Position numbers and translations under genes: made by a program
In this document: positions 4,079 to 54,921 of the stretch, one piece after another
Layout: each line of letters begins with the position of its first letter
How positions within the stretch are numbered: position 1 is the first letter of the stretch
Notes under the pieces: model-generated
What the model was told of the DNA's origin: nothing
Seen by the model: only the letters and a program-made list of their open reading frames with translations
Databases searched by the model: none
Virus genome (UHGV): UHGV-0084588
DNA length: 64,000 nt
Reading direction: 5' to 3' (one strand)
Source: a virus

Positions 4079-4157
4079 GAACGCGGAATTGGACATCACT
4101 TTCACGTTAGAAGTTGATGGATTAAAACCAGTATAATAATCCGCTTATAAAAATGTT

Positions 4158-4190
4158 GGGGAGGTGCTTTACCTCCCCAGATCTTTTAGC
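4158..4190 (+). promoter_or_regulatory. stem-loop upstream of the tail-fibre start
   Basis: Perfect 8-bp inverted repeat GGGGAGGT-gcttt-ACCTCCCC followed by a short T-rich stretch, after a TATAAAAA box; terminator or 5' UTR structure. Confidence 0.4.
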
Positions 4191-4212
4191 TCCAGATAGA
4201 GAATTAAATATC

Positions 4213-7200
4213 ATGGCTAAAGCGGTAAAGAAAATACGTTTACACGATTTGCGTCCATACACCGGGGATATCGGTGAAGGCGTTTTACTTTTTTCGAAAG
4301 ACGAAAAAGATTATAAGTTACCCGTCCGCGAAATCGTTGCGGATATTGACACCGTCAGAAACGCGGTTGCTGATGCACAAACAGCTGCAGCCAAATCGCA
4401 GCAGTCTGCAACAGAAGCTACGCAAGCAAAAAATTTAGCGGAAACCGCGAAGCAACAAACTGACACGTTAGCTTCCACAGTCAGTGAGCAAGCGGGAACC
4501 GTTGCCACTAAAACTGCTGAAGTTAACAAAAAACACGCTGAAGTTTTAGCAGCGAAAACTGCCGTAGATACTGTTTCACAATCAGTAAATGAGAAGGCTC
4601 AAGCTGTCGCCACATCCGAACAATCTGTGACGGCTACGGCGGCTGATGTAACTAAGAAAGCAGAAACGGTTACGCAACAGGCCGGACAAGTTCAACAGAC
4701 GGCTACCAGCGTTGAAAATACCGCAGCTTCAGTCGAGGCCAGTAAAGGTGCAGTGGAGAAAATCGCTGCACAGGTCGCGAAAGATAAAGAAAGCTCAGAA
4801 GGGGCAGCTACGCGTTCGGAGTCAGCTGCCCTACGTGCGGAGAAAATCGCTGCCCAAGGATTAGTTGACGCTACTACAACCGGTAAAGGTATTGTTAAAC
4901 TTAACGATACCCTGACAAGCGATTCCGTGACTGAGGCTGCTACACCGTCCACGGTTAAACAGCTGAACGACGATTTACAGTTAAAAGCCAATAAACATTC
5001 GCCGAATTTTACGGGTAACCCGACATCCCCAAAACCGCCGAAGGACTCGAATGACACGAGTATCTCCACAACGTCCTGGGTGCGTGACGCGATTGCGGAA
5101 TTGGTTGGTTCTTCACCCGAGACGCTAAATACCTTAGCGGAATTAGCTGAGGCGTTAGGTAATGACCCTAACTTCGCAACAACGATCACTGAGGAACTTG
5201 CGCAGAAACAACCTCTCAGCCCGTTACTCACCGCTATTGCCGCAGTCACCACAGCGGCAAACAAACTCATGTATTTCACCGGCAGTAATAAAGTCGGATT
5301 AACAGATTTTACAGAAACGGCCAGATCCTTGTTAGCGAAAGGGTCAACTGCGGATATCATTAACTTCCTGGGTTTGAAACCCACCGTTGATAAAGCAAAC
5401 GGCGCATTACAGAAAAACTCTAACGGTGCTGATATCCCAAATAAAGAAACTTTTGCTCGCAACATCGGCCTATCTCCTGATACCTATCTGCGTTTCCGTG
5501 GCGAAATGCCTGTAGATGCTGATATTAACACATTTGCTCCAGATGCTAATTACACAGGAACATGGTCCAAGTCGACATCAACCAATGCGTCGATGGCAAA
5601 ACACTTCCCAGAAGACGGTGCAGTCGGTTATCTGGAAGTGTATAAAGCGGGCAACTACAGTGGAGCGCAACGTTTTACCTGCCGTAATGGTAACGTGTAC
5701 AACCGTATGTTGTCAGGTGCGTGGAACGGAACTAATGGCCCGTGGTCACCGTGGAGAATGGTAACTACCGGTGTACGTCCGTTATCTACATCGATCGATC
5801 TGAACTCCTTAGGCGGCGCTGAGCACATGGGTAACTGGCGTAACTCGTCCAGTTCGTTAGCGGTGTTCGACAGACATTATCCTGAAGAGGGCGGTAATGC
5901 GCAAGGCGTATTAGAAGTCATGGAAGGCGGTCTTTATGGACGGTTGCAACGATACACCACACGACATGGTACGATGTATGTCCGTGGTTTGACTGCGACT
6001 TGGGATTCTTCTAATCCGCAGTGGGAAGATTGGATTCAGGTTGGGTATCAGGTAGACGGTGCCTACTATAAGGGTAGCTTTAACGACTTAACTAAACCGG
6101 GCCGCTTTAGTGTTACCGGTGAGGCTACAGACAGTCCGTTAACAGACTCTGCTGGCGCAACCTTGCTAGGTGTTTGCGAAGTTACCTTACGCTTAGACGG
6201 TTCAGGCGTTGAACAAAATTATACCACATACGGTACAGGCGCAACTTCGAAAGGTCGCAAGTTCCAACGAATTCGTACAGGAAACGCCTGGAGCGAATGG
6301 CGAGAGATTTTCACATCCTATTCACTCCCGTTGACTTTAGGGATCGGTGGGGTTGCTGCTAAGGTCGATCCGTTAGACTGGCAAACATTCGACTTCGTTC
6401 CTGGCCAGATGATAAGTACACCGTTGAATACCATGAAAAATATTCCTGCGGGAATGGATTGGGGTGTTATCGACGGTAACTTGGTCACTATTCTTGTAGG
6501 GGCGTCGGAGGACACCGGTACTGGCCGGAGTATGTTGGTCTGGCGTGGTACAGTGTCTACTGCTAACTATCGCTTCTTTGCTGTTCGCGTCGCTGGTGAA
6601 AAGGGTAAACGTACTATTACTAGCCGCCAGATGCCCGTATTGAATGCAGCGCATACGTGGGCAGAAAAACAGACCTTTGCAAAAGGGTTATCGGGCGAAT
6701 TGACAGGTAATGCGTCAACGGCAACAAAACTGAAAACAGCCCGTTTAATCGGCGGTGTAAGTTTCGACGGTAGCGGCGACATTAGCCTCCCTGGTGTGAA
6801 CCAACAGGGTAATCAAAACACCTCTGGGAACGCGGGAACCGCAACCAAATTACAAACGGCTCGAAACATCAACGGTGTGAAATTTGATGGGTCTAGAGAC
6901 ATCAATATCAACACGTTGGTAGGACGTGGACGTGTTACTGCACTGTCTGGTTCAAACAAAGGTACACCCGGTATTCAGATGTACGAAGTTTACAATAACG
7001 GTTATCCAACCGCTTATGGTAACTTACTGCATTTGGGTGGCGCTACTGCGCTAGGTGAAGGCGAGCTGTTAATCGGATGGCCGGGGACGAGCGGTGCGCA
7101 CGCGCCTGTTTATATTCGTAGTCGACGTGATACGGCTGATGCACCGTGGTCAGATTGGGCACAAGTTTACACTGCCCGTGACAGCATTCCTGGCGTAAAT

Positions 7201-8655
7201 GCCACCGGTAATCAAGATACTACCGGCAACGCCGCTACCGCGACGAAACTGAAAACCGCTCGCAGGATCGGAGGCGTTACCTTTGACGGTACAGGTGATA
7301 TCAATTTACCGGGCGTTAACCAGCAAGGCAACCAGAATACGACAGGTAATGCAGCGACCGCTACTAAGTTACAAACCGCACGTAAGATCGGCGGTGTGCT
7401 TTTCGATGGGACAAAAGACGTTAATCTTCCTGGCGTAAACCAAACCGGTAACCAATCGACTACGGGGAATGCGGCGACAGCGACTAAGCTCCAGACTGCG
7501 CGAAATATAGGTGGTGTAGCTTTTGATGGTACTAAAGACATCAGTTTACCTGGAGTAAACCAAACAGGTAATCAGGCGACTACCGGAAACGCAGCCACGG
7601 CAACAAAGTTGCAAACCGCAAGAACCATTAACGGTATCGCATTTGACGGCACTAGAAATATATCGTTAGGACCTGCCGATATAGGTTGTCCGGCATCGCC
7701 TAGTGGTTGGTTAGAAACTGGCAAAGATGGCGGCGCAATAACTACAGCACAGCTAGTGACGTTATTGAAAAATAACGGCGCATTTACCACAAGATCGTGG
7801 GTTGCTCGCTGTGCATGGGCTTATGCCGCTAGTGCGTCCATACCACACAGCGAGACGGGTTGTGGTGTTATTCCGTTAGCTGGGGCCGTTATAGAAGTGA
7901 TTAGTAACGGTAATAGCACAAACAACTACACGATCCGTATAACGACTGCCACAACGGCGAGCGTCGGTGGCGCACTCACTAATGCGGAGTTTATCTACGT
8001 ATTTAACGGCGATACATACTCACCAGGCTGGCGTCGTGCTTACAATACGAGAAACAAGCCAACTGCTGCAGAAGTGGGTGCACTACCTTCGGGGGGCGGT
8101 ACTATAGGCGGCGATTTAACCGTTAACGGTAAATTGGCCACTAAATACCCTGATTTTCGAATCGCTTACGGTACCTACGGTTTTATTTTACGTAACGACG
8201 GTGCCAATACCTATTTCTTAGTAACCGACGCCGGACAAGCCGCAACGGGTTCCTGGAACGGATTACGCCCGTTGTCTTTTAATAATTCTAACGGCCAAGT
8301 AAACTTTGGACATAACGTTACTGGCAACGGTAACGGTTCGTTTAACGACGTACAGATTCGTTCTGACCGTCGTAACAAACGTAATCTGGTGAAGCTGGAT
8401 AAAGCTTTGGATCGGTTAGAGTTACTAACCGGTTATTTGTACGAAATTCAGCATCCGGATGACGGCTGGCAGACTTCTGTAGGTCTAATTGCTCAGGACG
8501 CATTAGAAGCGTTACCTGAACTTGTGTCTGAGGATGATGATGCCATTTCAGGCGAAAAACGTTTACGTCTAAACTACAATGGCGTTATTGCGCTGTTAGT
8601 AGAGGGTATGAAAGCGTTGCGTCAAGAGGTTAACGAAATTAAAGGAAGATCCTAA
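4213..8655 (+). CDS. long tail fibre protein with C-terminal intramolecular chaperone (S74-like)
   Basis: 1480 aa from the ATG at 4213. N-terminal Ala/Gln/Thr-rich segment; four copies of a W-containing ~70-aa knob-like domain; six 40-aa repeats (GNQNTTGNAATATKLQTAR.IGGV.FDGT.D..LPGVNQ) of the phage tail-fibre repeat type; C-terminal ~97 aa (SDRRNKRNLVKLDKALDRLELLTGYLYE...) resembles the self-cleaving chaperone of T5 pb1 / K1F endosialidase. Confidence 0.85.
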   Translation: MAKAVKKIRLHDLRPYTGDIGEGVLLFSKDEKDYKLPVREIVADIDTVRNAVADAQTAAAKSQQSATEATQAKNLAETAKQQTDTLASTVSEQAGTVATKTAEVNKKHAEVLAAKTAVDTVSQSVNEKAQAVATSEQSVTATAADVTKKAETVTQQAGQVQQTATSVENTAASVEASKGAVEKIAAQVAKDKESSEGAATRSESAALRAEKIAAQGLVDATTTGKGIVKLNDTLTSDSVTEAATPSTVKQLNDDLQLKANKHSPNFTGNPTSPKPPKDSNDTSISTTSWVRDAIAELVGSSPETLNTLAELAEALGNDPNFATTITEELAQKQPLSPLLTAIAAVTTAANKLMYFTGSNKVGLTDFTETARSLLAKGSTADIINFLGLKPTVDKANGALQKNSNGADIPNKETFARNIGLSPDTYLRFRGEMPVDADINTFAPDANYTGTWSKSTSTNASMAKHFPEDGAVGYLEVYKAGNYSGAQRFTCRNGNVYNRMLSGAWNGTNGPWSPWRMVTTGVRPLSTSIDLNSLGGAEHMGNWRNSSSSLAVFDRHYPEEGGNAQGVLEVMEGGLYGRLQRYTTRHGTMYVRGLTATWDSSNPQWEDWIQVGYQVDGAYYKGSFNDLTKPGRFSVTGEATDSPLTDSAGATLLGVCEVTLRLDGSGVEQNYTTYGTGATSKGRKFQRIRTGNAWSEWREIFTSYSLPLTLGIGGVAAKVDPLDWQTFDFVPGQMISTPLNTMKNIPAGMDWGVIDGNLVTILVGASEDTGTGRSMLVWRGTVSTANYRFFAVRVAGEKGKRTITSRQMPVLNAAHTWAEKQTFAKGLSGELTGNASTATKLKTARLIGGVSFDGSGDISLPGVNQQGNQNTSGNAGTATKLQTARNINGVKFDGSRDININTLVGRGRVTALSGSNKGTPGIQMYEVYNNGYPTAYGNLLHLGGATALGEGELLIGWPGTSGAHAPVYIRSRRDTADAPWSDWAQVYTARDSIPGVNATGNQDTTGNAATATKLKTARRIGGVTFDGTGDINLPGVNQQGNQNTTGNAATATKLQTARKIGGVLFDGTKDVNLPGVNQTGNQSTTGNAATATKLQTARNIGGVAFDGTKDISLPGVNQTGNQATTGNAATATKLQTARTINGIAFDGTRNISLGPADIGCPASPSGWLETGKDGGAITTAQLVTLLKNNGAFTTRSWVARCAWAYAASASIPHSETGCGVIPLAGAVIEVISNGNSTNNYTIRITTATTASVGGALTNAEFIYVFNGDTYSPGWRRAYNTRNKPTAAEVGALPSGGGTIGGDLTVNGKLATKYPDFRIAYGTYGFILRNDGANTYFLVTDAGQAATGSWNGLRPLSFNNSNGQVNFGHNVTGNGNGSFNDVQIRSDRRNKRNLVKLDKALDRLELLTGYLYEIQHPDDGWQTSVGLIAQDALEALPELVSEDDDAISGEKRLRLNYNGVIALLVEGMKALRQEVNEIKGRS
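6689..6909 (+). repeat. tandem 120-nt coding repeats (block 1, about 2 units)
   Basis: Repeated nucleotide units encoding ...TGNASTATKLKTAR.IGGV.FDGS.DI.LPGVNQ...; the minus-strand ORF 6567..6782 is a shadow of these. Confidence 0.7.
7189..7669 (+). repeat. tandem 120-nt coding repeats (block 2, 4 units)
   Basis: Units begin at about 7189, 7309, 7429 and 7549 (CCTGGCGTAAAC / CCGGGCGTTAAC ... GGTAA.CA...AC.AC.GG.AA.GC.GC.AC.GC.AC.AA); the minus-strand ORF 7212..7541 is a shadow. Confidence 0.8.
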
Positions 8656-9437
8656 TGGCAGTTGTCGGCGTAGGTGGTTGGATTGGTTCTTCAGCAAAAG
8701 CTGAAGCTGGTAACGAATGGATGTCTGGCGCGATGCGCACACTTGGTGTGCCGGTTCCAGGCTGGATGTCGCAATTGGCGGGAAAATCAAAAGAGGTCCA
8801 TTATTCTATTGGTGCTAACCATAGCTATAATAAGGATACTCTTATTAACTATTTACGTTCTTTAGGCTCTACTGCTGTCGTTGTGACTATTACGGGGGAT
8901 TTAGTGTCCCATAGTAGCACGGTTCCTTGTTTAGAATTCCCTAGCAATCTTCCAAATTCGTATATTACCCTCATCATCAATCCTGGGGTTACAGTATACG
9001 GCAGAGGAGGCAACGGCGGTTCTAACTCACCAGGCGGTGCAGGTGGAACCGCAATACAGAACGGAATAGGAAACAGACTGCGTATAACCAACCGTGGCGC
9101 TATTGCCGGAGGCGGTGGCGGCGGTGGCGGCGGTAACAGGGGTAGACTAACATTTGGTGGTGGCGGTGGTCGCCCATTCGGTGCTGGTGGGTCTTCCTCT
9201 CATATGAGTTCCGGTGCGGCTGCTGGTACTATTTCCGCTCCTGGTAGAGGATCTGTTGGTGAGGGGTCTCTTAGTGCATATACAGGCGGTTCGGGTGGTA
9301 ATGTCGGTGCTGCTGGAGGAAGATGTAATACTCATGGTAACGGTACAGAATATAACGGCGGAGCAGCTGGTAAAGCTGTTACTGGTAATGCGCCAAGATG
9401 GGACGCAGTAGGTGCAATATATGGTTCACGTGTTTAA
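8655..9437 (+). CDS. gp38-like tail-fibre adhesin with glycine-rich motifs
   Basis: N-terminus MAVVGVGGWIGSSAKAEAGNEWMS and the YGRGGNGGSNSPGGAGG / GGGGGGGGG / GGGGGRPFGAGGS segments match, from memory, the T2/T6-type gp38 adhesin; start overlaps the fibre stop (TAATG). Confidence 0.75.
   Translation: MAVVGVGGWIGSSAKAEAGNEWMSGAMRTLGVPVPGWMSQLAGKSKEVHYSIGANHSYNKDTLINYLRSLGSTAVVVTITGDLVSHSSTVPCLEFPSNLPNSYITLIINPGVTVYGRGGNGGSNSPGGAGGTAIQNGIGNRLRITNRGAIAGGGGGGGGGNRGRLTFGGGGGRPFGAGGSSSHMSSGAAAGTISAPGRGSVGEGSLSAYTGGSGGNVGAAGGRCNTHGNGTEYNGGAAGKAVTGNAPRWDAVGAIYGSRV
9108..9170 (+). repeat. GGC/GGT codon run encoding poly-glycine
   Basis: ggaggcggtggcggcggtggcggcggt... low-complexity triplet repeat inside the gp38-like gene. 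Confidence 0.6.
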
Positions 9438-9497: not shown

Positions 9498-10010
9498 ATG
9501 GCGGTAGCATCAGGATGGGTCGGATCTTCAGCTAAGAATGAAACTGGCGAACAATGGATGAGCGCTGCGGGTAGTAAATTAGGATTGGGTAGACCATTTA
9601 TGATGAGTCAAATGGTGGGCCGATCTACGGGTTGTAAAATTGCGACCGCTTACTACAAAGGGAATCCTCCTGATAAAGTTGAAAACTGGGGGGCCGTAGG
9701 TTCAGATTGGCCATTGGCTGAAAAGAACAAAGGCACAATTACTGGTGCTTCGAGCTGTGGTTTAGGTCGTTTAGTGGGGATCGTACTTACGCAAGCTCAC
9801 TACATTTCTGGTGTTCCACCCACTGCGGCTTTATACATCGCAGGAGGAAGGGCAAGTAATATTACAGTAACAGTTGGTGGGGTCTCACAAGTTTTCACCT
9901 ATAATAGTGTTATTAACGGTTTTCACTATTACTGGCAAGGAACACCTAGTTCGGCCTTTATAGCAGCAATGAAGAGAACGGGTGTTACACAAGATTTGAA
10001 AATTAGTTAA
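9498..10010 (+). CDS. gp38-like adhesin paralog (no glycine-rich region)
   Basis: N-terminus MAVASGWVGSSAKNETGEQWMSAAG parallels 8655..9437, with a different C-terminal domain; GGGGGTAAAATG RBS. Confidence 0.6.
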   Translation: MAVASGWVGSSAKNETGEQWMSAAGSKLGLGRPFMMSQMVGRSTGCKIATAYYKGNPPDKVENWGAVGSDWPLAEKNKGTITGASSCGLGRLVGIVLTQAHYISGVPPTAALYIAGGRASNITVTVGGVSQVFTYNSVINGFHYYWQGTPSSAFIAAMKRTGVTQDLKIS

Positions 10011-10162: not shown

Positions 10163-10678
10163 ATGGGGCAATTCGTGCCGGATTTGTCGTTAACTTCACT
10201 TAACATGGTTATTTCACTGGTTAACCATGACCTCCAGCTCGACTTGCAAGAGAACGAGGTTGAAGTCAGCGACGTAAAGACCAGTAACGAAATGGATCGT
10301 GACACCACTGCTGTTGTAAAGATAAAACGTCCGGACAACAGAACGTTGCAGATATATTACAACCGTTTAACCGCAGAGCGGTGGTTAAACCAGCAACCTA
10401 TCCTAGTAAAGGTTTCCGGTAATGGCTTTACCGCACACGATCTAATCGACGGAATTAACGCGGCTTGTGGTTGTAATTTACAACCCGACGATCTTACCGA
10501 CGAATCATTTACCGTAGGGAAAGACGCTGTAACGTTACAGGTTTCACCCAACTCGTTAGGTTATAAAGGCCAATTCTCCGTTCTGGTTTTCGGTAACGAT
10601 GAAGAAGCTGCTGTAGTAAAAGACAACGATTTAATCGTTACCGCAGATAACCGTGTCTTAACATTCGGAGGCCGCTAA
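10163..10678 (+). CDS. fibre-associated paralog-family protein (family A, copy 2)
   Basis: Paralog of 3448..4008; AGGGAG RBS; stop overlaps the next start (TAATG). Confidence 0.6.
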   Translation: MGQFVPDLSLTSLNMVISLVNHDLQLDLQENEVEVSDVKTSNEMDRDTTAVVKIKRPDNRTLQIYYNRLTAERWLNQQPILVKVSGNGFTAHDLIDGINAACGCNLQPDDLTDESFTVGKDAVTLQVSPNSLGYKGQFSVLVFGNDEEAAVVKDNDLIVTADNRVLTFGGR

Positions 10679-24372: not shown

Positions 24373-24914
24373 TCTTCTTCTCCAACCATACCTAATTCTT
24401 GCAGCAAGCCAAAATCAATCAACTGGAAGGTTTCAGAGAGATCGTTTGACCACACCACGTTTGCAATGTCGCGTTCTTCATCGGATAATTGCGGTAACAC
24501 ATTTTCGTTGAACGTCTGATGCTCTACGTAATAAGCATCGTAGATAGACGTAGAACGCAAGCAACGGATTGGCAGTCTTGGGAAAGACACCGCTAATGCA
24601 GCAATAGATGCGCTGCTCGGATTCTCCGCAGAATAGCGAAGCAATTCGATTTTGTGGCGCGGATAGTCCAGTACGCGTTGCTCGAAACCCGGATTACGTT
24701 TTTCGATTTCAACAACGGACTCATGACCTGTTTCTGTACAGTAAACGGGAATCATCACGTTTAGCCCGTACTTAATTAACAGAGGTTTAATCTCATCTGT
24801 AAAGTCTTCGCCAGGGATAATGGCGTGAACGTTATAGAGTTTATGTTTGCGCAGAAAACGCTCAACCAGATGGAGTTTACGCTTCGTAAAATTGTGGATC
24901 AGAATTGATTTCAT
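24348..24914 (-). CDS. hypothetical protein
   Basis: Start taken at the internal ATG at 24914 (GAGG about 9 nt upstream); overlaps the 3' end of the radical SAM gene. Confidence 0.45.
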   Translation of the reverse strand: MKSILIHNFTKRKLHLVERFLRKHKLYNVHAIIPGEDFTDEIKPLLIKYGLNVMIPVYCTETGHESVVEIEKRNPGFEQRVLDYPRHKIELLRYSAENPSSASIAALAVSFPRLPIRCLRSTSIYDAYYVEHQTFNENVLPQLSDEERDIANVVWSNDLSETFQLIDFGLLQELGMVGEEECLLLTKA

Positions 24915-26211
24915 TATTTGCCTCAGTAGGTTGTGCATTTAAAGCACGTTTAGCTTGCTCACGCTCACGCGTACATTTCGGACAGTAACAAACAGACGAA
25001 TCGTGCAGTGACGATGCGTGGACGGTACCCGTACGTTGACGCCAGTATTCTGCTGCCATCAGTTTTGCGGTCGTCCAGCCACATTGACGACGTTCAGCGT
25101 GGTACGCCTTACGGTCTTCCAGTGTCCCTTCACCGTTTTCGTAGGAAGCAGCTGCACAGCTGCCACAACCGTGTTTCATCGGACAGCCTAAGCACGTTTC
25201 AGGGTAGTTAGTATATTGCGTCTGAATCTCTTCCAGCAGCTTCCCGTCATCTAAACTAACGAACTCGCGACCAACTAATTCAAACACCGCAGAACGTGAC
25301 GTTACCGTTGACATAAAACGGTTACAACCGTATACCTTGCGGTCAAAACCTAAACAGGTCATGAACGTTAACGTACCACAGAACGGACGTAGGCGATCTG
25401 GGTTATAACGATGCGTGTCGTCATACAGCAGCTTATCGCGCCAATCTGGGTCCCAAATCTGACGGAAATCCAGACCTTCGGGAATGATATGTGACAACAC
25501 GTTACGTGGATTGGTGTGCAACCCTTTCTCAATCCAATAATCCATCACGTCGATCATCTGCAACGCAATATCCGTTGCCATGCTCCGTGGAAGAATATCT
25601 TCGTACGTAACGTTACCTGAAATCGTACCGCCACCGGCAACATCGATTAGCGATTTCATACTCGCTGCATAATGCGGTAACGTTTCGGTCGTAAAGGTTG
25701 CCTTGATACCCAGTTCAGCAATACCGACTTCTTTTAAGTAGTTATAGCCACGAACAGCGGCTTCGTAAGAACCTTGACGCGTCGTGGTAAAGATACGATA
25801 GCGGTCATGGACTTCTGGTAAACCGTCGATAGAAACACCGATGGAGAGTTTGTCTTTCCAACGCTCAACAATCTCACGGTTTAACGGGCGATCTAACAAC
25901 GTACCGTTAGTTGAGATACTGAACATATACGGGCGATTGTGCTCCTTACACAACTGTTCTGCGGTTTCGAACGCCGCTAACAGCAGTTTCGGTTGCATAA
26001 AAGGCTCACCGCCGATGATATCAATAATGACGTCGATGTTCGGAATATCTTTATCGCGCTCAAAACACGCGTGTAAGAAATCCACGATATCCGCCGCTTT
26101 GTTATTACGCGGATACTTACGTTCGTAACAATACTCACAGTCTAAGTTACAAGACAGATTCGTTACCACCTGGTAAGTACGTTGAGAACGTGGTGCTTCA
26201 TTATTGCTCAT
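24877..26211 (-). CDS. radical SAM enzyme with C-terminal SPASM-like Cys cluster
   Basis: CNLDCEYC (CxxxCxxC) at residues 21-28, GGEPF SAM-binding motif, and C-terminal CLGCPMKHGCGSC plus additional Cys, as in SPASM maturases. Confidence 0.75.
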   Translation of the reverse strand: MSNNEAPRSQRTYQVVTNLSCNLDCEYCYERKYPRNNKAADIVDFLHACFERDKDIPNIDVIIDIIGGEPFMQPKLLLAAFETAEQLCKEHNRPYMFSISTNGTLLDRPLNREIVERWKDKLSIGVSIDGLPEVHDRYRIFTTTRQGSYEAAVRGYNYLKEVGIAELGIKATFTTETLPHYAASMKSLIDVAGGGTISGNVTYEDILPRSMATDIALQMIDVMDYWIEKGLHTNPRNVLSHIIPEGLDFRQIWDPDWRDKLLYDDTHRYNPDRLRPFCGTLTFMTCLGFDRKVYGCNRFMSTVTSRSAVFELVGREFVSLDDGKLLEEIQTQYTNYPETCLGCPMKHGCGSCAAASYENGEGTLEDRKAYHAERRQCGWTTAKLMAAEYWRQRTGTVHASSLHDSSVCYCPKCTREREQAKRALNAQPTEANNEINSDPQFYEA

Positions 26212-30414: not shown

Positions 30415-33400
30415 TTAAGATGTAAACATAAGATTGAACTGGAGCTTATCGATATCGCGAGTTTGTGCTGGGTTAACCGCATCGTACGTGGTTGCCACGT
30501 AGACCGTTAACGTGCCGTCAGAAAACGCGGTTTTCACCGGTGGTGTAGTCCCTGTCTGTCCATCAGTTACAATGACGACAGGTTGAGCCGGGAGTTGACG
30601 AAACTGACTCTTAACCGCTTTATACACCAAACCAGATTGTGCCGCTTGCTCTGTGGCGGTGTACACGATAAACGGTGTGTCGATATCTGTCTGTTTAATG
30701 ACAGTGTTCGTCTCAACGTCAATCAGCTGAACAGCACCAAATTTGGTCCGGTAACTATCGTATTCATTTTTTGGAATGACAAACGTAGCATGAAGGCGGA
30801 CTTCGGCGGCTGGCTTAAATCCCGCGTGTTCTTTTTCCAGGTAACTGTTAGCAGTTAGCGTTACTGTCTGTTCAGTCATCGTACCGCCAGACTGATTTAG
30901 CCCGTAACGAACTTGAGTTATACCTGTCGGGGCCGCAAGCCTGATTTTCAGTCGACGATTAGTAGTACCAGGATCGCCAGGTACTTTAACACGCAGACTC
31001 AATGCCAGATATGCATACTCGCCGGTAGTCGGTTTCGTATACGCACCCAACCACTTCATGTTCGCGGTTGCTGCTTGTTTGTTCTCAGAAGCAGTAGCCG
31101 CTGCAACGTTCGCAGCAACCGCTTTCTGCCAGAACTGGTCAGCGCAGTTCTCATACGCCACCCTGCTGATACTTTTATAACCTGAATAGGTTTCCTGTAC
31201 CGGCAACCTGGGCCGCGTTGCAATCCCGGACAACGTATTCCATTTCTGGCCATCGACATACCCAGCACCCTTGCTCGCAGATGCTGTAATGGCTTTAACG
31301 GGTTTATTAACCACTGTTAATAGTGGACCAGTTTTCCTGTCGAACGCCTGCGCCACATCGTGCTGATCAACAACCGAGGCATGATTTTCCAGCTCTTTTA
31401 CACGACCTAACCGTTTTACTTTATCGATACTGATATCCGTAATACGGTTCGAATCAGTGGTTACTGTCCCAACAAACAGTCTCGACGAGGTATCAGCTAA
31501 CTGCTCTAAACCGATGCGGTATTGGGCAGTAGAACCGACCACTTCAGCATAAACGTAGAATGTCTGGTTAGCGTGATTAGTCGGGAATTCATCGCTTAAA
31601 TCAACGGACCATCTTGGAACGGTATATCTTTTATTTCCAAAACTTAACTCGGTTTCCTCCGTCAGATAGAAATTCCAACCGCTCTGTGTTTGTACGCCGC
31701 CAATAATAATCTTATCGATAACAGTATATTTTTTGTTAAACAAATCAGAGATTCTATACTGTTCGCCACCGAGATACAACTCGTTTAAATCTTCCGAGTT
31801 ACAAGTCAATAGCGCGATGCCCGAGAGATCGGGTATATAGACTTCAGATGTATTATTCAGCGTATACGTATAGCCCCACGCCCGATGAATTTCGCCGGTA
31901 AACCATTCTCCTTTTTTAGTCAAGTTTATCCCAAAAGCAAAAGAAATCTCTGATCCTACAAGATTCCCGCCAACCAGGTTATGTATTGAGAATCTGAACT
32001 TTTGTCCGTCTTGCGAATAAAGGAAAACTTGACCGGAGCGTTGTTTAAGTTCACCATTAAAAGCTGTGGGTGAGAGATTAATGGCGTTACTGGCCACTTT
32101 TTCCCTGAACGTCATCATTCTCGCTTCCGAACTAACGAACCTTATGACCCCGTTGGTTATAGTCGGTTTTACCTGAAAGAAGTAAAAAGCAAACTTATTT
32201 ACCCCGTCAGTGTCTTTATAGATAAGACTCACTATCGCGATACAAAGCGGACCACCAGACATCGTTTGACCAAGCACCCAAAAGGACAAACTGTAGTTGT
32301 TCTTTTTGGTCTTAGCTACGCTAATCCGCTCATAGGCGTTGCCGTTAGAAGCCCCAGAGAACTGGCTGGACTGAACAATATTAGTCAACTTCGCCCATTC
32401 TGCCGCATCGATAGACAACCGATCACTAGCCACCGTAGTGGTACCGTAAACAACTTTACATGGTTTACTTTCAGCACCGATAAAGTAAGCCCCATCTAGT
32501 AGACCTTTCGGTATGTCTGGCGTAACAACCAGCGGTATATTTGTCAATACGCCGTATTCGTTCGCTTTTTTTTCAACACGGCGGGATGTTGGTCCAAACC
32601 CGCCGTATCCAGGATAACCATAAGTCGTATCTTTATCATATTCGGCTTCAATGAAATAAGCCGTTTTTTGATGTTTAAGCCATACTTTGTTTGTTCCTGG
32701 GAAGAACAATGGGAAGGTCATAGACGGTTTCCACACCGAACCCACCACAGGGTTTATCCGATTTTCAAACGTAGATTGCCCCTCATACCCCGCACTCAAC
32801 TTAACATAGTCCAGATAACTAACTCCTTCTGGGAGTTTCTGGTAATGGAGAGATGGTGCAAGTTGTTTTTCTGTCGAACAGCAGCAAGAATAAACCATAT
32901 CACCGACACAGATTCTATTGTCGGCCATATAGCCAGAACTTCGAGTAGCCCATTTCCATTTCAGCTCTATTTTTGTTCCGTCTTTTAAGTAGCAACCTGT
33001 AGTATCGATTTTGATTGGGAAGATGTTAGTTGTCTCTAACCCAACCTCCCCGGTTAATAGGTCGAGACGATAAGCACCATTCCATGGCCCGAATGTGGTA
33101 CCTTTCGTTGAAGAAAAACCAAGACAAACGCCAGACACGCCGACGGTTAACAAGTGACCGTCCTTAACAACGGGCGTTATCCATCTTGACACCCCTCTAG
33201 TTAATTGTAAATTCACTGTCCACAACGCTTTGCCTTCCGCAGTGAAGTAGGCAAGACGCTTCGTATTCGGATTATCTACATCGAACGCGCCAGGTTCAAC
33301 CAAATCGGCACACTTACCGATTTTTCGTGTAGAGCTTAAATCAACCTGTTCAAACCGATCGGTTTTATTAAGCCGCAATAACCCAACACGGAACATAGGT

Positions 33401-35601
33401 TGCGGAGTATCCTTAATGTAGTCCACCAGACTATTGTTTTTCAGATCGGCCATTAGCATCGTACGCAAAACATAAACGCCATTATCGGCTATGACCACAC
33501 GATCCATGAACATATTCGGCACAAATTCCCATGTTGTTTCTGAAACAAATTCTGAGAAAGTTACCAACCTGACATCGGTATGTTTGGTGTAATCCATTGA
33601 ACCGTTCAGTTTAACTAAATAATAATTATCGTCGCTGCCCTTCGCTATAAATGCTTCGGTACCAGTAACGGTAATTTCTTTTAGTTCCACCCCCGGATAA
33701 TTCGTCTCTAACCCTTTCGGCTTATAACGGAAAGTTGTTTTGTAAATTTCACCGAGACTTTTGTCGTTTTTTAACCCAGCAACAGCGTAATAAATACCCT
33801 CAGTTCCCGGAAGGGCAGATTTAGAACTAATTAAAGCATAAAGCTTACCTTGTTGTACCCCTATAACCATCTGGAGCGCATCCATGTTTTTACCATAACC
33901 TTCGTAATTACCCATCGACAAGATCGGCAATATCGAATTGTTGGTATATTTGCTCCCGGCCGTTGTCCATGCGGGCAAGAGGGTATTCAGTTTATCAGAG
34001 ACCTTCTTAATCTCTTTTGCGAACAACCACCCTTGGCGTGATGTGACGGCTTTATCATTCGTGGTATCAATCGCATCCCACAGCTGTAAGATACCGTCCA
34101 CTGTTGCGCTACCGATCGGGACATTATCCAAATCAGCGGTAGTGTGCGTGTGTACCTTCAAACTTTTATTTTTCAGCACGTTCGCTAATGCTTTTGTTAC
34201 CGGTTTAGCGATGGGTGTGGTGTTATTCATCTTATCGATACCGAAATCGGCCTTCGTTAAGGTTAACACCATGTTGTCGCCTGTCTTAACAAACCCTTTA
34301 CCGTTAACCGTGTAGTCGTCGTCAACGTACAAGTCCAACCGGTCTTTTAATTCGGTCACAGCCTTTTGGGAAATAGCAGTGCCTAGCGCTACAGAGGTTG
34401 CGATATTCGTAATCGAAAACACCCCATAAACCGACTCGGTTGCTGTGGGAATATTCGCATTCAACGTTAGTGGGTTAGACTGCTTCGCTGTACCGTACGG
34501 TTTTACGGTGTCAGACGATTTGAAATAGGCGTTCGCTTCAAGTAACGTTACAGACGTCAGGTACATGTTCACCATTTCTGGTGTAACCAAATACACAGAG
34601 TTATAGACCGGTGCTAATACATCCTGTTCTGACCCAGAATGTACCCAAAGCGTATTCAGCCCCGCACTAAACTCAACCGCCAAACCGGATTCGTTGTTGT
34701 CTTGGTCTGCTTTAATCACTAACGGTTGTGGTGAAGTAATTAACCACTTATCACCACGGATGCTGATGATGTGTCCACCCGGTGTTTTAAACGTTAGTTC
34801 ATTACCGTTCGTGGTACCCCAACGACCGTAAACGGTACCGAGGGCTTCGCCCATTAACTGTTCAACGTCTGATTGCTCAATGCCCGCCGAACCCATCAGC
34901 GTAGCCAGTTGGTCAATTGTCAACCCAAACGCTTTTGTAGCGTCAACAGCACGTCCTAAAACCGGAAGGGCCCCAACGTCATTGGTCGTATACTGGTGAG
35001 CGTTAGGATTAAGGTGGTGTTGGTATAGTTCTTCATCGAAAATCTTTTTACCGTTCTCGTAAATCAGGTTAGTGACTTCGGTGAAGGCCGCATCTAACTC
35101 TGTTGAACGCTGAATGATTTTCTTGCGGATATCGTTCAACGCTTTAACGACCTCGTCCCTCAGAATCGCTTCTTCTAAGTTAGCAGGGGGGTCGATTGGT
35201 TGAATAACCGGCGCGTACGCCATTAACTCCGACCAGTCCACGTTACGTGGGTCTTTCAGGTCAGTACGAACTAAGAACTTCCCGATTTCAGATTGCGGTA
35301 CACGGTATTGACGTGCTACCCCTAAAATCTCATATTCGATTTCTGTTGCAGTAAGCAACATAAACCCGCCATAAATCTGATCTTGTTCAGCTTCTGCGAG
35401 TTCTTTAAAGTAATAGCCTAAATAGTAGTCCAACCCCTCAATCAGAGTACGACGTCCGTTAGGCGCGGTATCGTCGGCTACTGTGAGTTTTAATCCGATA
35501 CGATAAAAAGGTCCTTCAGGCGGAATGACCACGTTAAATCGGTTAGGGTACGTCGTTGTGCTTAGCGTACCGTTAAACTGCGCCGCGTCTTCTCTCGGCA
35601 T
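30415..35601 (-). CDS. giant tailspike/tail-fibre protein (1728 aa)
   Basis: N-terminal VIPPEGPFYRIGLKLTV...LIEGLDYYL anchor motif (T7 gp17 / T4 gp10-like as recalled); a tail-fibre-type segment with KVHTHTTADL; AGGAG RBS. Confidence 0.75.
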   Translation of the reverse strand: MPREDAAQFNGTLSTTTYPNRFNVVIPPEGPFYRIGLKLTVADDTAPNGRRTLIEGLDYYLGYYFKELAEAEQDQIYGGFMLLTATEIEYEILGVARQYRVPQSEIGKFLVRTDLKDPRNVDWSELMAYAPVIQPIDPPANLEEAILRDEVVKALNDIRKKIIQRSTELDAAFTEVTNLIYENGKKIFDEELYQHHLNPNAHQYTTNDVGALPVLGRAVDATKAFGLTIDQLATLMGSAGIEQSDVEQLMGEALGTVYGRWGTTNGNELTFKTPGGHIISIRGDKWLITSPQPLVIKADQDNNESGLAVEFSAGLNTLWVHSGSEQDVLAPVYNSVYLVTPEMVNMYLTSVTLLEANAYFKSSDTVKPYGTAKQSNPLTLNANIPTATESVYGVFSITNIATSVALGTAISQKAVTELKDRLDLYVDDDYTVNGKGFVKTGDNMVLTLTKADFGIDKMNNTTPIAKPVTKALANVLKNKSLKVHTHTTADLDNVPIGSATVDGILQLWDAIDTTNDKAVTSRQGWLFAKEIKKVSDKLNTLLPAWTTAGSKYTNNSILPILSMGNYEGYGKNMDALQMVIGVQQGKLYALISSKSALPGTEGIYYAVAGLKNDKSLGEIYKTTFRYKPKGLETNYPGVELKEITVTGTEAFIAKGSDDNYYLVKLNGSMDYTKHTDVRLVTFSEFVSETTWEFVPNMFMDRVVIADNGVYVLRTMLMADLKNNSLVDYIKDTPQPMFRVGLLRLNKTDRFEQVDLSSTRKIGKCADLVEPGAFDVDNPNTKRLAYFTAEGKALWTVNLQLTRGVSRWITPVVKDGHLLTVGVSGVCLGFSSTKGTTFGPWNGAYRLDLLTGEVGLETTNIFPIKIDTTGCYLKDGTKIELKWKWATRSSGYMADNRICVGDMVYSCCCSTEKQLAPSLHYQKLPEGVSYLDYVKLSAGYEGQSTFENRINPVVGSVWKPSMTFPLFFPGTNKVWLKHQKTAYFIEAEYDKDTTYGYPGYGGFGPTSRRVEKKANEYGVLTNIPLVVTPDIPKGLLDGAYFIGAESKPCKVVYGTTTVASDRLSIDAAEWAKLTNIVQSSQFSGASNGNAYERISVAKTKKNNYSLSFWVLGQTMSGGPLCIAIVSLIYKDTDGVNKFAFYFFQVKPTITNGVIRFVSSEARMMTFREKVASNAINLSPTAFNGELKQRSGQVFLYSQDGQKFRFSIHNLVGGNLVGSEISFAFGINLTKKGEWFTGEIHRAWGYTYTLNNTSEVYIPDLSGIALLTCNSEDLNELYLGGEQYRISDLFNKKYTVIDKIIIGGVQTQSGWNFYLTEETELSFGNKRYTVPRWSVDLSDEFPTNHANQTFYVYAEVVGSTAQYRIGLEQLADTSSRLFVGTVTTDSNRITDISIDKVKRLGRVKELENHASVVDQHDVAQAFDRKTGPLLTVVNKPVKAITASASKGAGYVDGQKWNTLSGIATRPRLPVQETYSGYKSISRVAYENCADQFWQKAVAANVAAATASENKQAATANMKWLGAYTKPTTGEYAYLALSLRVKVPGDPGTTNRRLKIRLAAPTGITQVRYGLNQSGGTMTEQTVTLTANSYLEKEHAGFKPAAEVRLHATFVIPKNEYDSYRTKFGAVQLIDVETNTVIKQTDIDTPFIVYTATEQAAQSGLVYKAVKSQFRQLPAQPVVIVTDGQTGTTPPVKTAFSDGTLTVYVATTYDAVNPAQTRDIDKLQFNLMFTS

Positions 35602-54890: not shown

Positions 54891-54921
54891 TACACCACAC
54901 TCCGTCTTTATGGAGGTGGGT

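What the first reader, a model, noticed from the sequence alone, without database searches (positions are those of the whole stretch)
9108..9170. Poly-glycine triplet run in the gp38-like adhesin as a candidate hypervariable segment
A GGN codon run encodes nine consecutive Gly plus flanking Gly-rich segments. In T2-type adhesins these glycine-rich motifs frame the loops that set receptor specificity, and the repetitive DNA could also promote slippage.
Basis: partly seen in the sequence, partly recalled or inferred. Interest (0 to 1): 0.4.

Follow-up and report, generated by a model that had tools for sequence, protein, structure and literature searches.

The report
Conserved polyglycine scaffold of gp38 adhesin
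The nine-glycine run is real, but it is the conserved structural core of a phage tail-fibre tip protein (gp38), not a variable part; the receptor-reading loop is the seven residues right after it, and the run marks the seam where a whole specificity cassette was swapped in from T4-like phages.

Summary
Observation confirmed: window 9108-9170 (+) encodes G9-NRGRLTF-G5, aa 152-172 of a 260-aa ORF (8655-9437). The ORF is a gp38 adhesin: Pfam GP38 2e-70, S16 gp38 structure 6F45 3e-50, AF2 model TM 0.81-0.84.

Among 104 homologues the G-run is the most conserved stretch (0.32 bits entropy). It aligns with the central polyglycine-II helix of the S16 gp38 sandwich (151-GGGGGGGG-158). The true hypervariable segment is aa 161-167 (9135-9155; 2.51 bits, 47 variants).

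The run is also a mosaic seam. Upstream, the gene is about 98% identical to a 222-kb Enterobacter element. From about 9099 to 9361 it is about 95% identical to the OmpA-dependent 'type 2' gp38 of Straboviridae phages FL18, FL12 and FL20.

Slippage exists but is rare. I found four contraction alleles, three of them exactly -9 nt, and no expansions. All 8 DNA-level relatives keep 27 nt. Larger in-frame deletions (48 and 84 aa) recur between 16-nt GRM-coding repeats.

This is known biology (GRM/HVS architecture, recombination at conserved motifs) in an unusual host: a roughly 224-kb jumbo-phage-like element of Salmonella, E. coli and Enterobacter. Interest is low to moderate.

The parts
8655..9437 (+). 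gp38-type receptor-recognizing adhesin gene (260 aa). Its start codon overlaps the stop of the fibre gene by one base.
   Evidence: ORF list. Pfam GP38 PF05268 2.2e-70 plus Gp38_N 5.2e-14. PHROG 2056 5.9e-94. PDB 6f45_D 2.7e-50. AF2 pLDDT 90.7 with Foldseek TM 0.81/0.84 to 6f45_D.
8655..8780 (+). N-terminal attachment domain (aa 1-42), with Trp9, Trp22 and Trp37 aligned to the three Trp of S16 gp38 that dock on the gp37 tip
   Evidence: Pfam Gp38_N. Alignment to 6f45_D. Role of the Trp residues from PMC6851490.
9108..9134 (+). G9 run (aa 152-160): conserved glycine-rich motif, aligned with S16 helix 3 (151-GGGGGGGG-158), the central PGII helix of the polyglycine sandwich
   Evidence: AF2 block pLDDT 97 with no DSSP helix or strand at 152-159.
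9111..9134 (+). Perfect 9-nt tandem repeat GGCGGTGGC x2.7 inside the G-run. One unit equals 3 Gly.
   Evidence: TRF. Three of the four contraction alleles in homologues lose exactly 3 Gly.
9135..9155 (+). The true hypervariable segment in the flagged interval (aa 161-167, NRGRLTF). It is the loop between two GRMs.
   Evidence: Entropy 2.51 bits. 47 distinct sequences of 7-15 aa among the 87 of 104 homologues that a strict motif pattern could parse; the other 17 add further variants. The window and L001 diverge from here on.
9156..9191 (+). Next conserved glycine-rich block, GGGGGRPFGAGG (aa 168-179)
   Evidence: Entropy 0.41 bits. Near-invariant columns G169-F175.
9077..9116 (+). 5' mosaic junction. 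Similarity switches here from the 222-kb Enterobacter element to Straboviridae gp38.
   Evidence: Sliding identity and mismatch maps.
9099..9361 (+). Specificity cassette, about 95% nt identical to Mosigvirus FL18 and 87-100% per sliding window to FL12 and FL20 (OmpA-dependent 'type 2' gp38)
   Evidence: Receptor data for FL12, FL18 and FL20 from PMC12032242.
9362..9393 (+). 3' mosaic junction in the conserved C-terminal block
   Evidence: Identity to FL18 falls after about 9362, and identity to L001 returns to 93% at 9393.
9031..9046 (+). Copy 1 of a 16-nt GRM-coding direct repeat (CAGGCGGTGCAGGTGG). It is the upstream end-point of the natural 144-nt and 252-nt deletions.
   Evidence: Repeat family D2. 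Junctions in L002 and L023.
9175..9190 (+). Copy 2 of the repeat, the downstream end-point of the 48-aa deletion allele
9283..9298 (+). Copy 3 of the repeat, the downstream end-point of the 84-aa deletion allele
4153..8655 (+). Long tail fibre gene (1500 aa) with a C-terminal intramolecular-chaperone domain. It is the presumed carrier of the adhesin.
   Evidence: Pfam Phage_fiber_2, Gp34_trimer and Peptidase_S74.
9498..10010 (+). Second, glycine-poor adhesin with its own Gp38_N attachment domain (RB43/PEi20/Klebsiella-phage type)
   Evidence: Pfam Gp38_N 8e-21. PHROG 1121 'tail fiber adhesin' 3.3e-54. tblastn hits.

Best explanation
The GGN run encodes one of the conserved glycine-rich motifs (GRMs) of a T2/S16-type gp38 tail-fibre adhesin. 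The nine glycines most likely form the long central polyglycine-II helix of the three-layered 'polyglycine sandwich'. Only glycine fits that packing, which explains why the run is nearly invariant. Receptor specificity lies in the loops between GRMs. The loop in the flagged interval is NRGRLTF (aa 161-167). Because GRM-coding DNA is conserved between otherwise divergent genes, it also serves as the homology patch, or at least the permitted seam, where specificity cassettes are exchanged. In this gene the segment from about 9099 to 9361 was acquired from, or is shared with, Straboviridae 'type 2' OmpA-dependent adhesins. The attachment and beta-helix part belongs to the roughly 224-kb host element. 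The adhesin therefore probably targets OmpA. Slippage of the 9-nt repeat and illegitimate recombination between GRM repeats do occur. They are rare side effects that shorten or probably cripple the protein, not a diversity generator. Shown here: family membership, the conservation pattern, the mosaic junctions, and the contraction and deletion alleles. Inferred: the PGII conformation of the run, OmpA as the receptor, and recombination as the mechanism.
For: gp38 membership: Pfam GP38 2.2e-70 and Gp38_N, 6f45_D 2.7e-50 and 9v85 5e-37, AF2 pLDDT 90.7 with TM 0.81/0.84 to 6f45_D. The run aligns with S16 151-GGGGGGGG-158, described as PGII helix 3, with GRM 3 the central helix of the lattice (PMC6851490). 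Conservation: entropy is 0.32 bits for the run, 2.51 for aa 161-167 and 0.41 for aa 168-179. Run length is 7-9 in 101 of 104 homologues, with 9 both the mode and the maximum. Third codon positions of the run differ among relatives, so selection acts on Gly and not on the DNA. Mosaic structure: window vs L001 has 7 mismatches in 8655-9076 and then diverges. Window vs FL18 has dense mismatches up to 9098, then 13 in 9117-9361. Many megablast hits to T-even gp38 begin at window 9094-9111, at or just before the run. The specificity region is almost identical in protein to FL12, FL18, FL20 and JSE. FL12, FL18 and FL20 need OmpA (PMC12032242). Published precedent: GRMs are strictly conserved, HVSs are variable, and exchanges occur in or near conserved motifs (PMC3157838).
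Against: The PGII geometry was not measured on the model; only the absence of DSSP helix or strand and the high pLDDT were seen. Junction mapping rests on a few comparison genomes, and selection for functional chimeras could place junctions at GRMs without any mechanistic hotspot. The OmpA assignment is by similarity to E. coli phages. The element is found mostly in Salmonella, whose OmpA loops differ, and aa 166 (T) differs from FL12/FL20 (V) and FL18 (I). Rare contraction alleles show that the run length is not absolutely fixed.
Confidence: 0.88

Rival explanations
1. The GGN repeat is a slippage-prone contingency tract whose length changes tune or switch receptor specificity.
For: There is a perfect 9-nt tandem repeat x2.7. 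Four contraction alleles sit next to otherwise identical or nearly identical sisters: P0029/P0027, P0189/P0053 and P0073/P0071 (each -GGG) and P0023/P0018 (-GGGGG). Three of the four lose exactly one 9-nt unit.
Against: All 8 DNA-level relatives have exactly 27 nt. In the clusters of 106, 238 and 298 near-identical proteins, every full-length member listed is 260 aa or differs only in start-codon call or truncation, and the five members printed keep G9. No expansion beyond 9 occurs among 104 representatives. The contraction alleles are singletons or tiny clusters. Published host-range changes map to HVSs (PMC3157838, PMC12032242).
Confidence: 0.07
2. The run is a flexible, disordered glycine linker between domains.
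For: The sequence is low-complexity poly-Gly and has no DSSP secondary structure in the model.
Against: pLDDT is 97 for residues 151-160. The homologous S16 run is an ordered PGII helix in a hydrogen-bonded lattice (PMC6851490). Strict conservation of both length and identity is not expected of a linker.
Confidence: 0.02
3. The mosaic seam at the G-run reflects only selection for foldable chimeras, because it is a module boundary. It does not reflect GRM DNA acting as a recombination substrate. The run is then purely structural.
For: The third positions of the run differ between lineages, so uninterrupted identity is short. The transition zone 9077-9116 also covers the conserved ITNxGAIA block.
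Against: Natural deletions end exactly in 16-nt GRM-coding repeats, so these sequences do engage in recombination. Experimental crosses placed exchanges in or near conserved motifs (Tetart et al. 1996 and 1998, as cited in PMC3157838).
Confidence: 0.3

Closest known systems
Salmonella phage S16 gp38 (PDB 6F45 chain D; Dunne et al. 2018, described in PMC6851490)
   Same: It has the same three-domain plan: an N-terminal attachment domain with three Trp, a beta-helix and a polyglycine-II sandwich. The G-run aligns with S16 helix 3 (151-GGGGGGGG-158). Sequence match is E 2.7e-50, model TM 0.81/0.84 and 45% identity.
   Different: The run here is 9 Gly against 8. The HVS loops differ (NRGRLTF vs FRVGHTEA). 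The host genome is not a T4-like phage.
'Type 2' OmpA-dependent gp38 of Straboviridae phages FL12 (Tequatrovirus), FL18 (Mosigvirus) and FL20 (Krischvirus) (PMC12032242), together with JSE/RB49-type gp38
   Same: The specificity cassette, from the G-run to the C-terminal conserved block, is 87-100% nt identical per sliding window and almost identical in protein, including NRGRL(V/I/T)F.
   Different: The attachment and beta-helix modules are only 30-70% nt identical. The genomic context differs: a jumbo-phage-like element, not Straboviridae. A second adhesin gene follows in place of the holin seen after gp38 in FL12 and FL18.
T2/T6/K3/Ox2/M1 gp38 GRM/HVS architecture and recombinational shuffling (Drexler 1989; Tetart 1996, 1998; Trojet 2011, PMC3157838)
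   Same: Conserved GRMs alternate with hypervariable loops, and exchange junctions lie at conserved motifs.
   Different: Here the exchange partners belong to different phage lineages. Natural GRM-to-GRM deletion alleles exist, whereas engineered GRM or HVS deletions in T6 were not recovered as viable phage.
gp38 homologue of the 222-kb Enterobacter ludwigii 'plasmid' NZ_CP134650.1 (WP_311383425.1), and gp38 of ~108-kb plasmid-like elements of E. coli and Shigella. I take the ~108-kb elements to be SSU5-like from their size and from memory; this was not tested.
   Same: The Enterobacter element shares the same element family and synteny (fibre, gp38, second adhesin, DUF7941). Its gp38 aa 1-160 are nearly identical and it also carries a G9 run. 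The ~108-kb elements carry the same NRGRLVF cassette (P0004).
   Different: The Enterobacter allele carries another HVS set (YWDAGWGGAYLV and onward) from the first residue after the run.

Membership tests
gp38 receptor-recognizing adhesin (Pfam PF05268 + PF21721; T2/S16 type) | Significant match to the GP38 and Gp38_N profiles above their curated cut-offs | tested here: met
   237.4 bits (cut-off 25) and 52.4 bits (cut-off 25). PHROG 2056 5.9e-94.
gp38 receptor-recognizing adhesin (Pfam PF05268 + PF21721; T2/S16 type) | Three-domain fold: helical attachment domain, beta-helix, polyglycine sandwich | tested here: met
   AF2 model pLDDT 90.7. Foldseek to 6f45_D E 3e-21, TM 0.81/0.84; to 9v85 TM 0.76/0.88. 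This is a prediction, not an experiment.
gp38 receptor-recognizing adhesin (Pfam PF05268 + PF21721; T2/S16 type) | Conserved glycine-rich motifs alternating with hypervariable segments | tested here: met
   Entropy profile over 104 homologues: G-run 0.32, following loop 2.51, next GRM 0.41 bits.
gp38 receptor-recognizing adhesin (Pfam PF05268 + PF21721; T2/S16 type) | Three conserved Trp in the attachment domain that dock on the trimeric fibre tip | tested here: met
   W9, W22 and W37 align with the Trp of S16 gp38. W9 and W22 are at least 90% conserved. Their role is from PMC6851490.
gp38 receptor-recognizing adhesin (Pfam PF05268 + PF21721; T2/S16 type) | Gene lies immediately downstream of the distal long-tail-fibre gene | tested here: met
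   The fibre ORF 4153..8655 (Phage_fiber_2, Gp34_trimer, Peptidase_S74) ends where gp38 starts.
gp38 receptor-recognizing adhesin (Pfam PF05268 + PF21721; T2/S16 type) | Monomer bound to the fibre tip that binds an outer-membrane protein receptor | not testable with these tools
   OmpA is inferred only from cassette identity to FL12, FL18 and FL20 (PMC12032242).
Hypervariable segment (HVS) of gp38 | High sequence and length variability among homologues, applied to the G9 run 9108-9134 | tested here: not met
   Entropy 0.32 bits. G152-G156 and G158 are at least 90% conserved and G157 is invariant.
Hypervariable segment (HVS) of gp38 | High sequence and length variability among homologues, applied to aa 161-167 (9135-9155) | tested here: met
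   47 distinct sequences of 7-15 aa among the 87 homologues parsed; 2.51 bits over all 104.
Simple-sequence contingency locus (slippage-driven switching) | Frequent repeat-number polymorphism among close relatives | tested here: not met
   8 of 8 DNA relatives have 27 nt. The large near-identical clusters stay at 260 aa, and the members printed keep G9. Only four rare contraction alleles were found.
Simple-sequence contingency locus (slippage-driven switching) | Repeat-number change alters expression or function | not testable with these tools
   Changes are in frame (unit of 3 or 9 nt). The function of the G6 and G4 alleles is unknown.

The most novel reading that the evidence does not exclude
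The GRM-coding repeats make this adhesin gene a recurrent breakpoint cluster in nature. The same 144-nt and 252-nt in-frame deletions arose repeatedly between 16-nt repeats, and the G-run loses 9-nt units. A 9-nt unit encodes 3 Gly, which is one turn of a PGII helix according to textbook geometry; that link is my inference. The same motifs let a jumbo-phage-like, roughly 224-kb element of Salmonella, E. coli and Enterobacter trade ready-made OmpA-type specificity cassettes with Straboviridae and with ~108-kb plasmid-like elements. Crippled gp38 alleles may persist because a second, unrelated adhesin with the same attachment domain can occupy the same fibre tip.
Probability: 0.3. Interest if true: 0.45.

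Novelty: new member of a known kind. Interest (0 to 1): 0.25.

Why it matters
For the feature as flagged, the result matters little. It is a textbook glycine-rich motif of gp38, and its structural role has been known since the S16 structure.

Three things are of practical use. First, the correct map shows which bases are scaffold and which are the receptor loop. Second, it gives a receptor prediction (OmpA, type 2) for an adhesin carried by a large, poorly annotated phage-like element that is common in Salmonella isolate assemblies. Third, it gives a clear natural example of cassette exchange across phage lineages, with the seam at the polyglycine motif.

That supports using GRMs as safe junction points when engineering host range. 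It also shows that gp38-based receptor prediction can be applied outside Straboviridae.

Tried and rejected
1. DNA secondary structure as a driver of slippage. Folding 9090-9180 as single-stranded DNA gave z = 0.21 against shuffles, so there is no special hairpin. G-quadruplex potential was not tested.

2. Wide DNA pattern scans for run-length alleles. The pattern GCTATTGCN-N{9,39}-AACAGGGGTMRACTA was scanned in viral and metagenome contigs. It found only 8 scan loci, of which 6 are true relatives; 2 more of the 8 true relatives were loci already held (L006, L007). All have 27 nt. L020 and L021 were chance matches. The exact flanks made the scan too narrow to estimate rare alleles.

3. Assembly artefact as the explanation for the deletion alleles. 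I consider this unlikely. The end-point repeats are 16 nt and imperfect, which I understand to be shorter than typical assembly k-mers. The alleles come from several sources (NCBI, JGI/IMG, Logan, ENA) and sit on different sequence backgrounds. It is not formally excluded.

4. A folded 'mini' adhesin for the 212-aa deletion allele. AF2 gave mean pLDDT 71.6, 42-66 across the C-terminal domain, and below 50 at the junction. There is no support for a folded sandwich, though this is weak evidence.

5. Minus-strand ORFs overlapping the interval (8849..9091 and 9147..9335). I discounted these as spurious given the strong + strand protein homology.

6. Literature on gp38 in phage-plasmids, SSU5-like elements or jumbo phages. 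Nothing relevant was found in the searchable library.

7. A diversity-generating retroelement as the source of the hypervariability. I did not look for one. No reverse transcriptase appeared among the few ORFs scanned, and the variation consists of whole-loop replacements, not adenine-specific substitutions.

Full report

Yes. Window 9108-9170 (+) translates to GGGGGGGGG-NRGRLTF-GGGGG. It lies in frame inside ORF 8655..9437 (260 aa), as aa 152-172. Tandem Repeats Finder finds a perfect 9-nt repeat, GGCGGTGGC x2.7, at 9111-9134. The protein is 24.6% glycine. Even so, only 84 of 200,000 shuffles of its residues give a run of nine or more Gly. The run is conserved in homologues (see section 3), so it is not a chance feature.

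**2. What is the gene?**

The gp38 assignment is solid.
- Pfam GP38 (PF05268) scores 2.2e-70 over aa 47-260, and Gp38_N scores 5.2e-14 over aa 1-42.
- PHROG 2056 'tail fiber protein; host specificity' scores 5.9e-94.
- The best solved structure is chain D of 6F45, the S16 gp37-gp38 tip complex (2.7e-50). Next is 9V85, the PP01 gp38 receptor-binding domain (5e-37).
- An AlphaFold2 model built on a 104-sequence alignment has mean pLDDT 90.7. It superposes on 6F45_D with TM 0.81/0.84 and on 9V85 with TM 0.76/0.88. No other PDB fold scores better than E = 2.7.
- The gene starts at the stop codon of a 1500-aa fibre gene (4153..8655) that carries Phage_fiber_2, Gp34_trimer and a C-terminal Peptidase_S74 intramolecular-chaperone domain.
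- W9, W22 and W37 align with the three tryptophans that dock S16 gp38 on the gp37 trimer (PMC6851490).

**3. Is the poly-Gly run hypervariable?**

No, it is the opposite. I aligned the window protein with its 103 full-length homologues (cluster representatives, 48-98% identical). Mean column entropy by region:

| Region | Entropy (bits) |
|---|---|
| G-run, aa 152-160 | 0.32 |
| Next seven residues, aa 161-167 (NRGRLTF) | 2.51 |
| GGGGGRPFGAGG, aa 168-179 | 0.41 |
| Whole protein | 1.08 |

- A strict motif pattern parsed the loop after the run in 87 of the 104 sequences. It found 47 different sequences of 7-15 residues there.
- Run length across the 104 sequences is 9 in 57, 8 in 30, 7 in 14, 6 in 1 and 4 in 2. 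It never exceeds 9.
- The run aligns with S16 residues 151-158. The structure's authors describe these as PGII 'helix 3; 151-GGGGGGGG-158', and GRM 3 as the central helix of a three-layered lattice of ten polyglycine-II helices. Sequence variation in the five distal HVS loops tracks host-range adaptation, and the authors propose that receptor binding occurs there (PMC6851490).
- In my model, residues 151-160 have pLDDT 97 and residues 152-159 carry no DSSP helix or strand. This is consistent with a PGII helix. I could not measure the backbone angles.
- Codon third positions inside the run differ freely between relatives. What is conserved is therefore glycine, not the DNA sequence.

The flagged interval thus contains one scaffold element (9108-9134), one true hypervariable loop (9135-9155) and the start of the next scaffold element (9156-9170).

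**4. Comparison among related phages**

The window is not a T-even phage. Its only long DNA relative is a 222-kb circular 'plasmid' of Enterobacter ludwigii, NZ_CP134650.1 (86% identity over 79% of window 1-24000). It shows the same gene order: fibre, gp38, second adhesin, DUF7941.

The two gp38 proteins are nearly identical through aa 160 and diverge from the first residue after the G-run. At the DNA level:
- Window vs the Enterobacter element: 7 mismatches in 8655-9076, 13 in 9077-9134, then 23-60% identity per sliding window. Identity recovers to 93% at 9393.
- Window vs three Straboviridae phages (FL12 Tequatrovirus, FL20 Krischvirus, FL18 Mosigvirus): the mirror image. Identity is 30-70% before about 9084 and 87-100% from 9099 to about 9360. 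Against FL18 there are 13 mismatches in 9117-9361.
- About twenty megablast hits to T-even gp38 genes begin at window 9094-9111, at or just before the run.

The G-run block is therefore the 5' seam of a swapped specificity cassette. The 3' seam lies in the conserved C-terminal block at about 9362-9393. [quoted passage not shown]

The same cassette also sits in gp38 of ~108-kb plasmid-like elements of E. coli and Shigella sonnei (P0004 cluster). FL12, FL18 and FL20 require OmpA ('type 2' adhesins; PMC12032242), so OmpA is the most likely receptor here. That is an inference.

Both cassette types occur on roughly 222-226-kb contigs from Salmonella enterica: the window type and the Enterobacter type (YWDAGW...).

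**5. Does the repetitive DNA slip?**

Rarely, and only by contraction as far as I could see.
- Eight of eight true DNA relatives have exactly 27 nt in the run, with one synonymous change.
- In the three large clusters of near-identical proteins (106, 238 and 298 members), the listed members are 260 aa. Other lengths are explained by start-codon calls or truncated contigs, and the members whose sequences I printed keep G9.
- Four alleles differ from an identical or nearly identical sister only, or mainly, by lost glycines in this run:

| Allele / sister | Change | Identity to sister |
|---|---|---|
| P0029 / P0027 | -GGG | 100% otherwise |
| P0189 / P0053 | -GGG | 100% otherwise |
| P0073 / P0071 | -GGG | 99.6% |
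| P0023 / P0018 | -GGGGG | 96.8% |

- Three of the four lose 9 nt, which is one repeat unit. Three residues is also one turn of a PGII helix. That link rests on textbook helix geometry and is my inference.

Larger events also occur.
- A 16-nt direct-repeat family (CAGGCGGTGCAGGTGG and variants) sits at 9031, 9175 and 9283, with spacings of 144 and 108 nt.
- Natural alleles of 212 aa and 176 aa are exact 144-nt and 252-nt deletions between these copies. The junctions were read in L002 and L023.
- These alleles occur on different sequence backgrounds and in several databases. The 176-aa class has two different crossover points, GGAGG and GGSGG. This argues for recurrence and against an assembly artefact.
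- A 199-aa allele (P0038) appears to start its deletion inside the G-run itself. I inferred this junction by comparing protein sequences and did not check it at the DNA level.
- The 212-aa allele models poorly (pLDDT 71.6; 42-66 in the C-terminal domain). In T6, engineered GRM or HVS deletions were not recovered as viable phage. These alleles are probably defective.
- The DNA has no unusual hairpin potential (z = 0.21).

**6. Verdict**

The statement that glycine-rich motifs frame the specificity loops is correct. The proposal that the poly-Gly run is itself a candidate hypervariable segment is wrong, and slippage is a minor, mostly damaging side effect.

The feature is a known element (a GRM, or PGII helix) of a known family. 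The gene is a new member in an unusual genome.

The modest additions are:
- a precise cross-lineage cassette seam at the run;
- natural GRM-to-GRM deletion and contraction alleles;
- an OmpA receptor prediction;
- the tandem presence of a second, unrelated adhesin with the same attachment domain (9498-10010).

Noticed in passing
window 9498-10010 (+): A second adhesin gene lies directly after gp38. It is 170 aa, has its own Gp38_N attachment domain (8e-21) and a glycine-poor C-terminal part. It matches PHROG 1121 'tail fiber adhesin' (3.3e-54) and is 34-38% identical to gene 38 of RB43, Edwardsiella phage PEi20 and Klebsiella phages. It is about 91-93% identical to a gene in ~108-kb plasmid-like elements of E. 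coli and Shigella sonnei. Two alternative tips may compete for one fibre.
   Followed up: partly
whole window; L001 (NZ_CP134650.1): The window belongs to a roughly 220-226-kb element. It assembles as a stand-alone contig in many Salmonella enterica serovars and in E. coli, is deposited as a circular 222-kb 'plasmid' of Enterobacter ludwigii, and appears as ~225-kb viral contigs in IMG/VR. Its giant virion proteins are at most 50% identical to those of jumbo phages of Salmonella and Erwinia such as SPAsTU and phiEaH2. From memory, these belong to the SPN3US group. Finding such a jumbo phage resident in isolate assemblies suggests a carrier or plasmid-like state.
   Followed up: partly
window 30415-35601, 35696-39880, 39891-44213 (all - strand): Three adjacent giant ORFs (1728, 1394 and 1440 aa) have no Pfam match. 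They hit one another's PHROG families (7449, 8078, 7557, 2163; 'virion structural protein'), so they form a paralogous family of huge virion proteins.
   Followed up: partly
L002 6001-6639; L023 1176-1706; proteins P0003, P0008, P0025, P0038, P0163, P0167, P0171: Natural in-frame deletion alleles of this gp38 (212, 176 and 199 aa) remove whole GRM/HVS blocks, including the G9 run. Their end-points lie in 16-nt GRM-coding repeats. They occur on different sequence backgrounds in Salmonella assemblies, and the downstream second adhesin is intact in both loci examined.
   Followed up: yes
window 10163-10678 (+), and the homologous gene upstream of the fibre gene in L002 (754-1320): DUF7941 / 'virion structural protein' genes (PHROG 2935) flank the fibre-adhesin module on both sides in the related locus L002. 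This may mark a duplicated or modular fibre cassette.
   Followed up: no
window 24877-26211 (-) and 54910-57426 (+): A radical-SAM protein (Pfam 4.9e-14) and an SMC/RecF-like ATPase (838 aa; below the Pfam cut-off) are encoded in the phage-like element. Their function is unknown.
   Followed up: no
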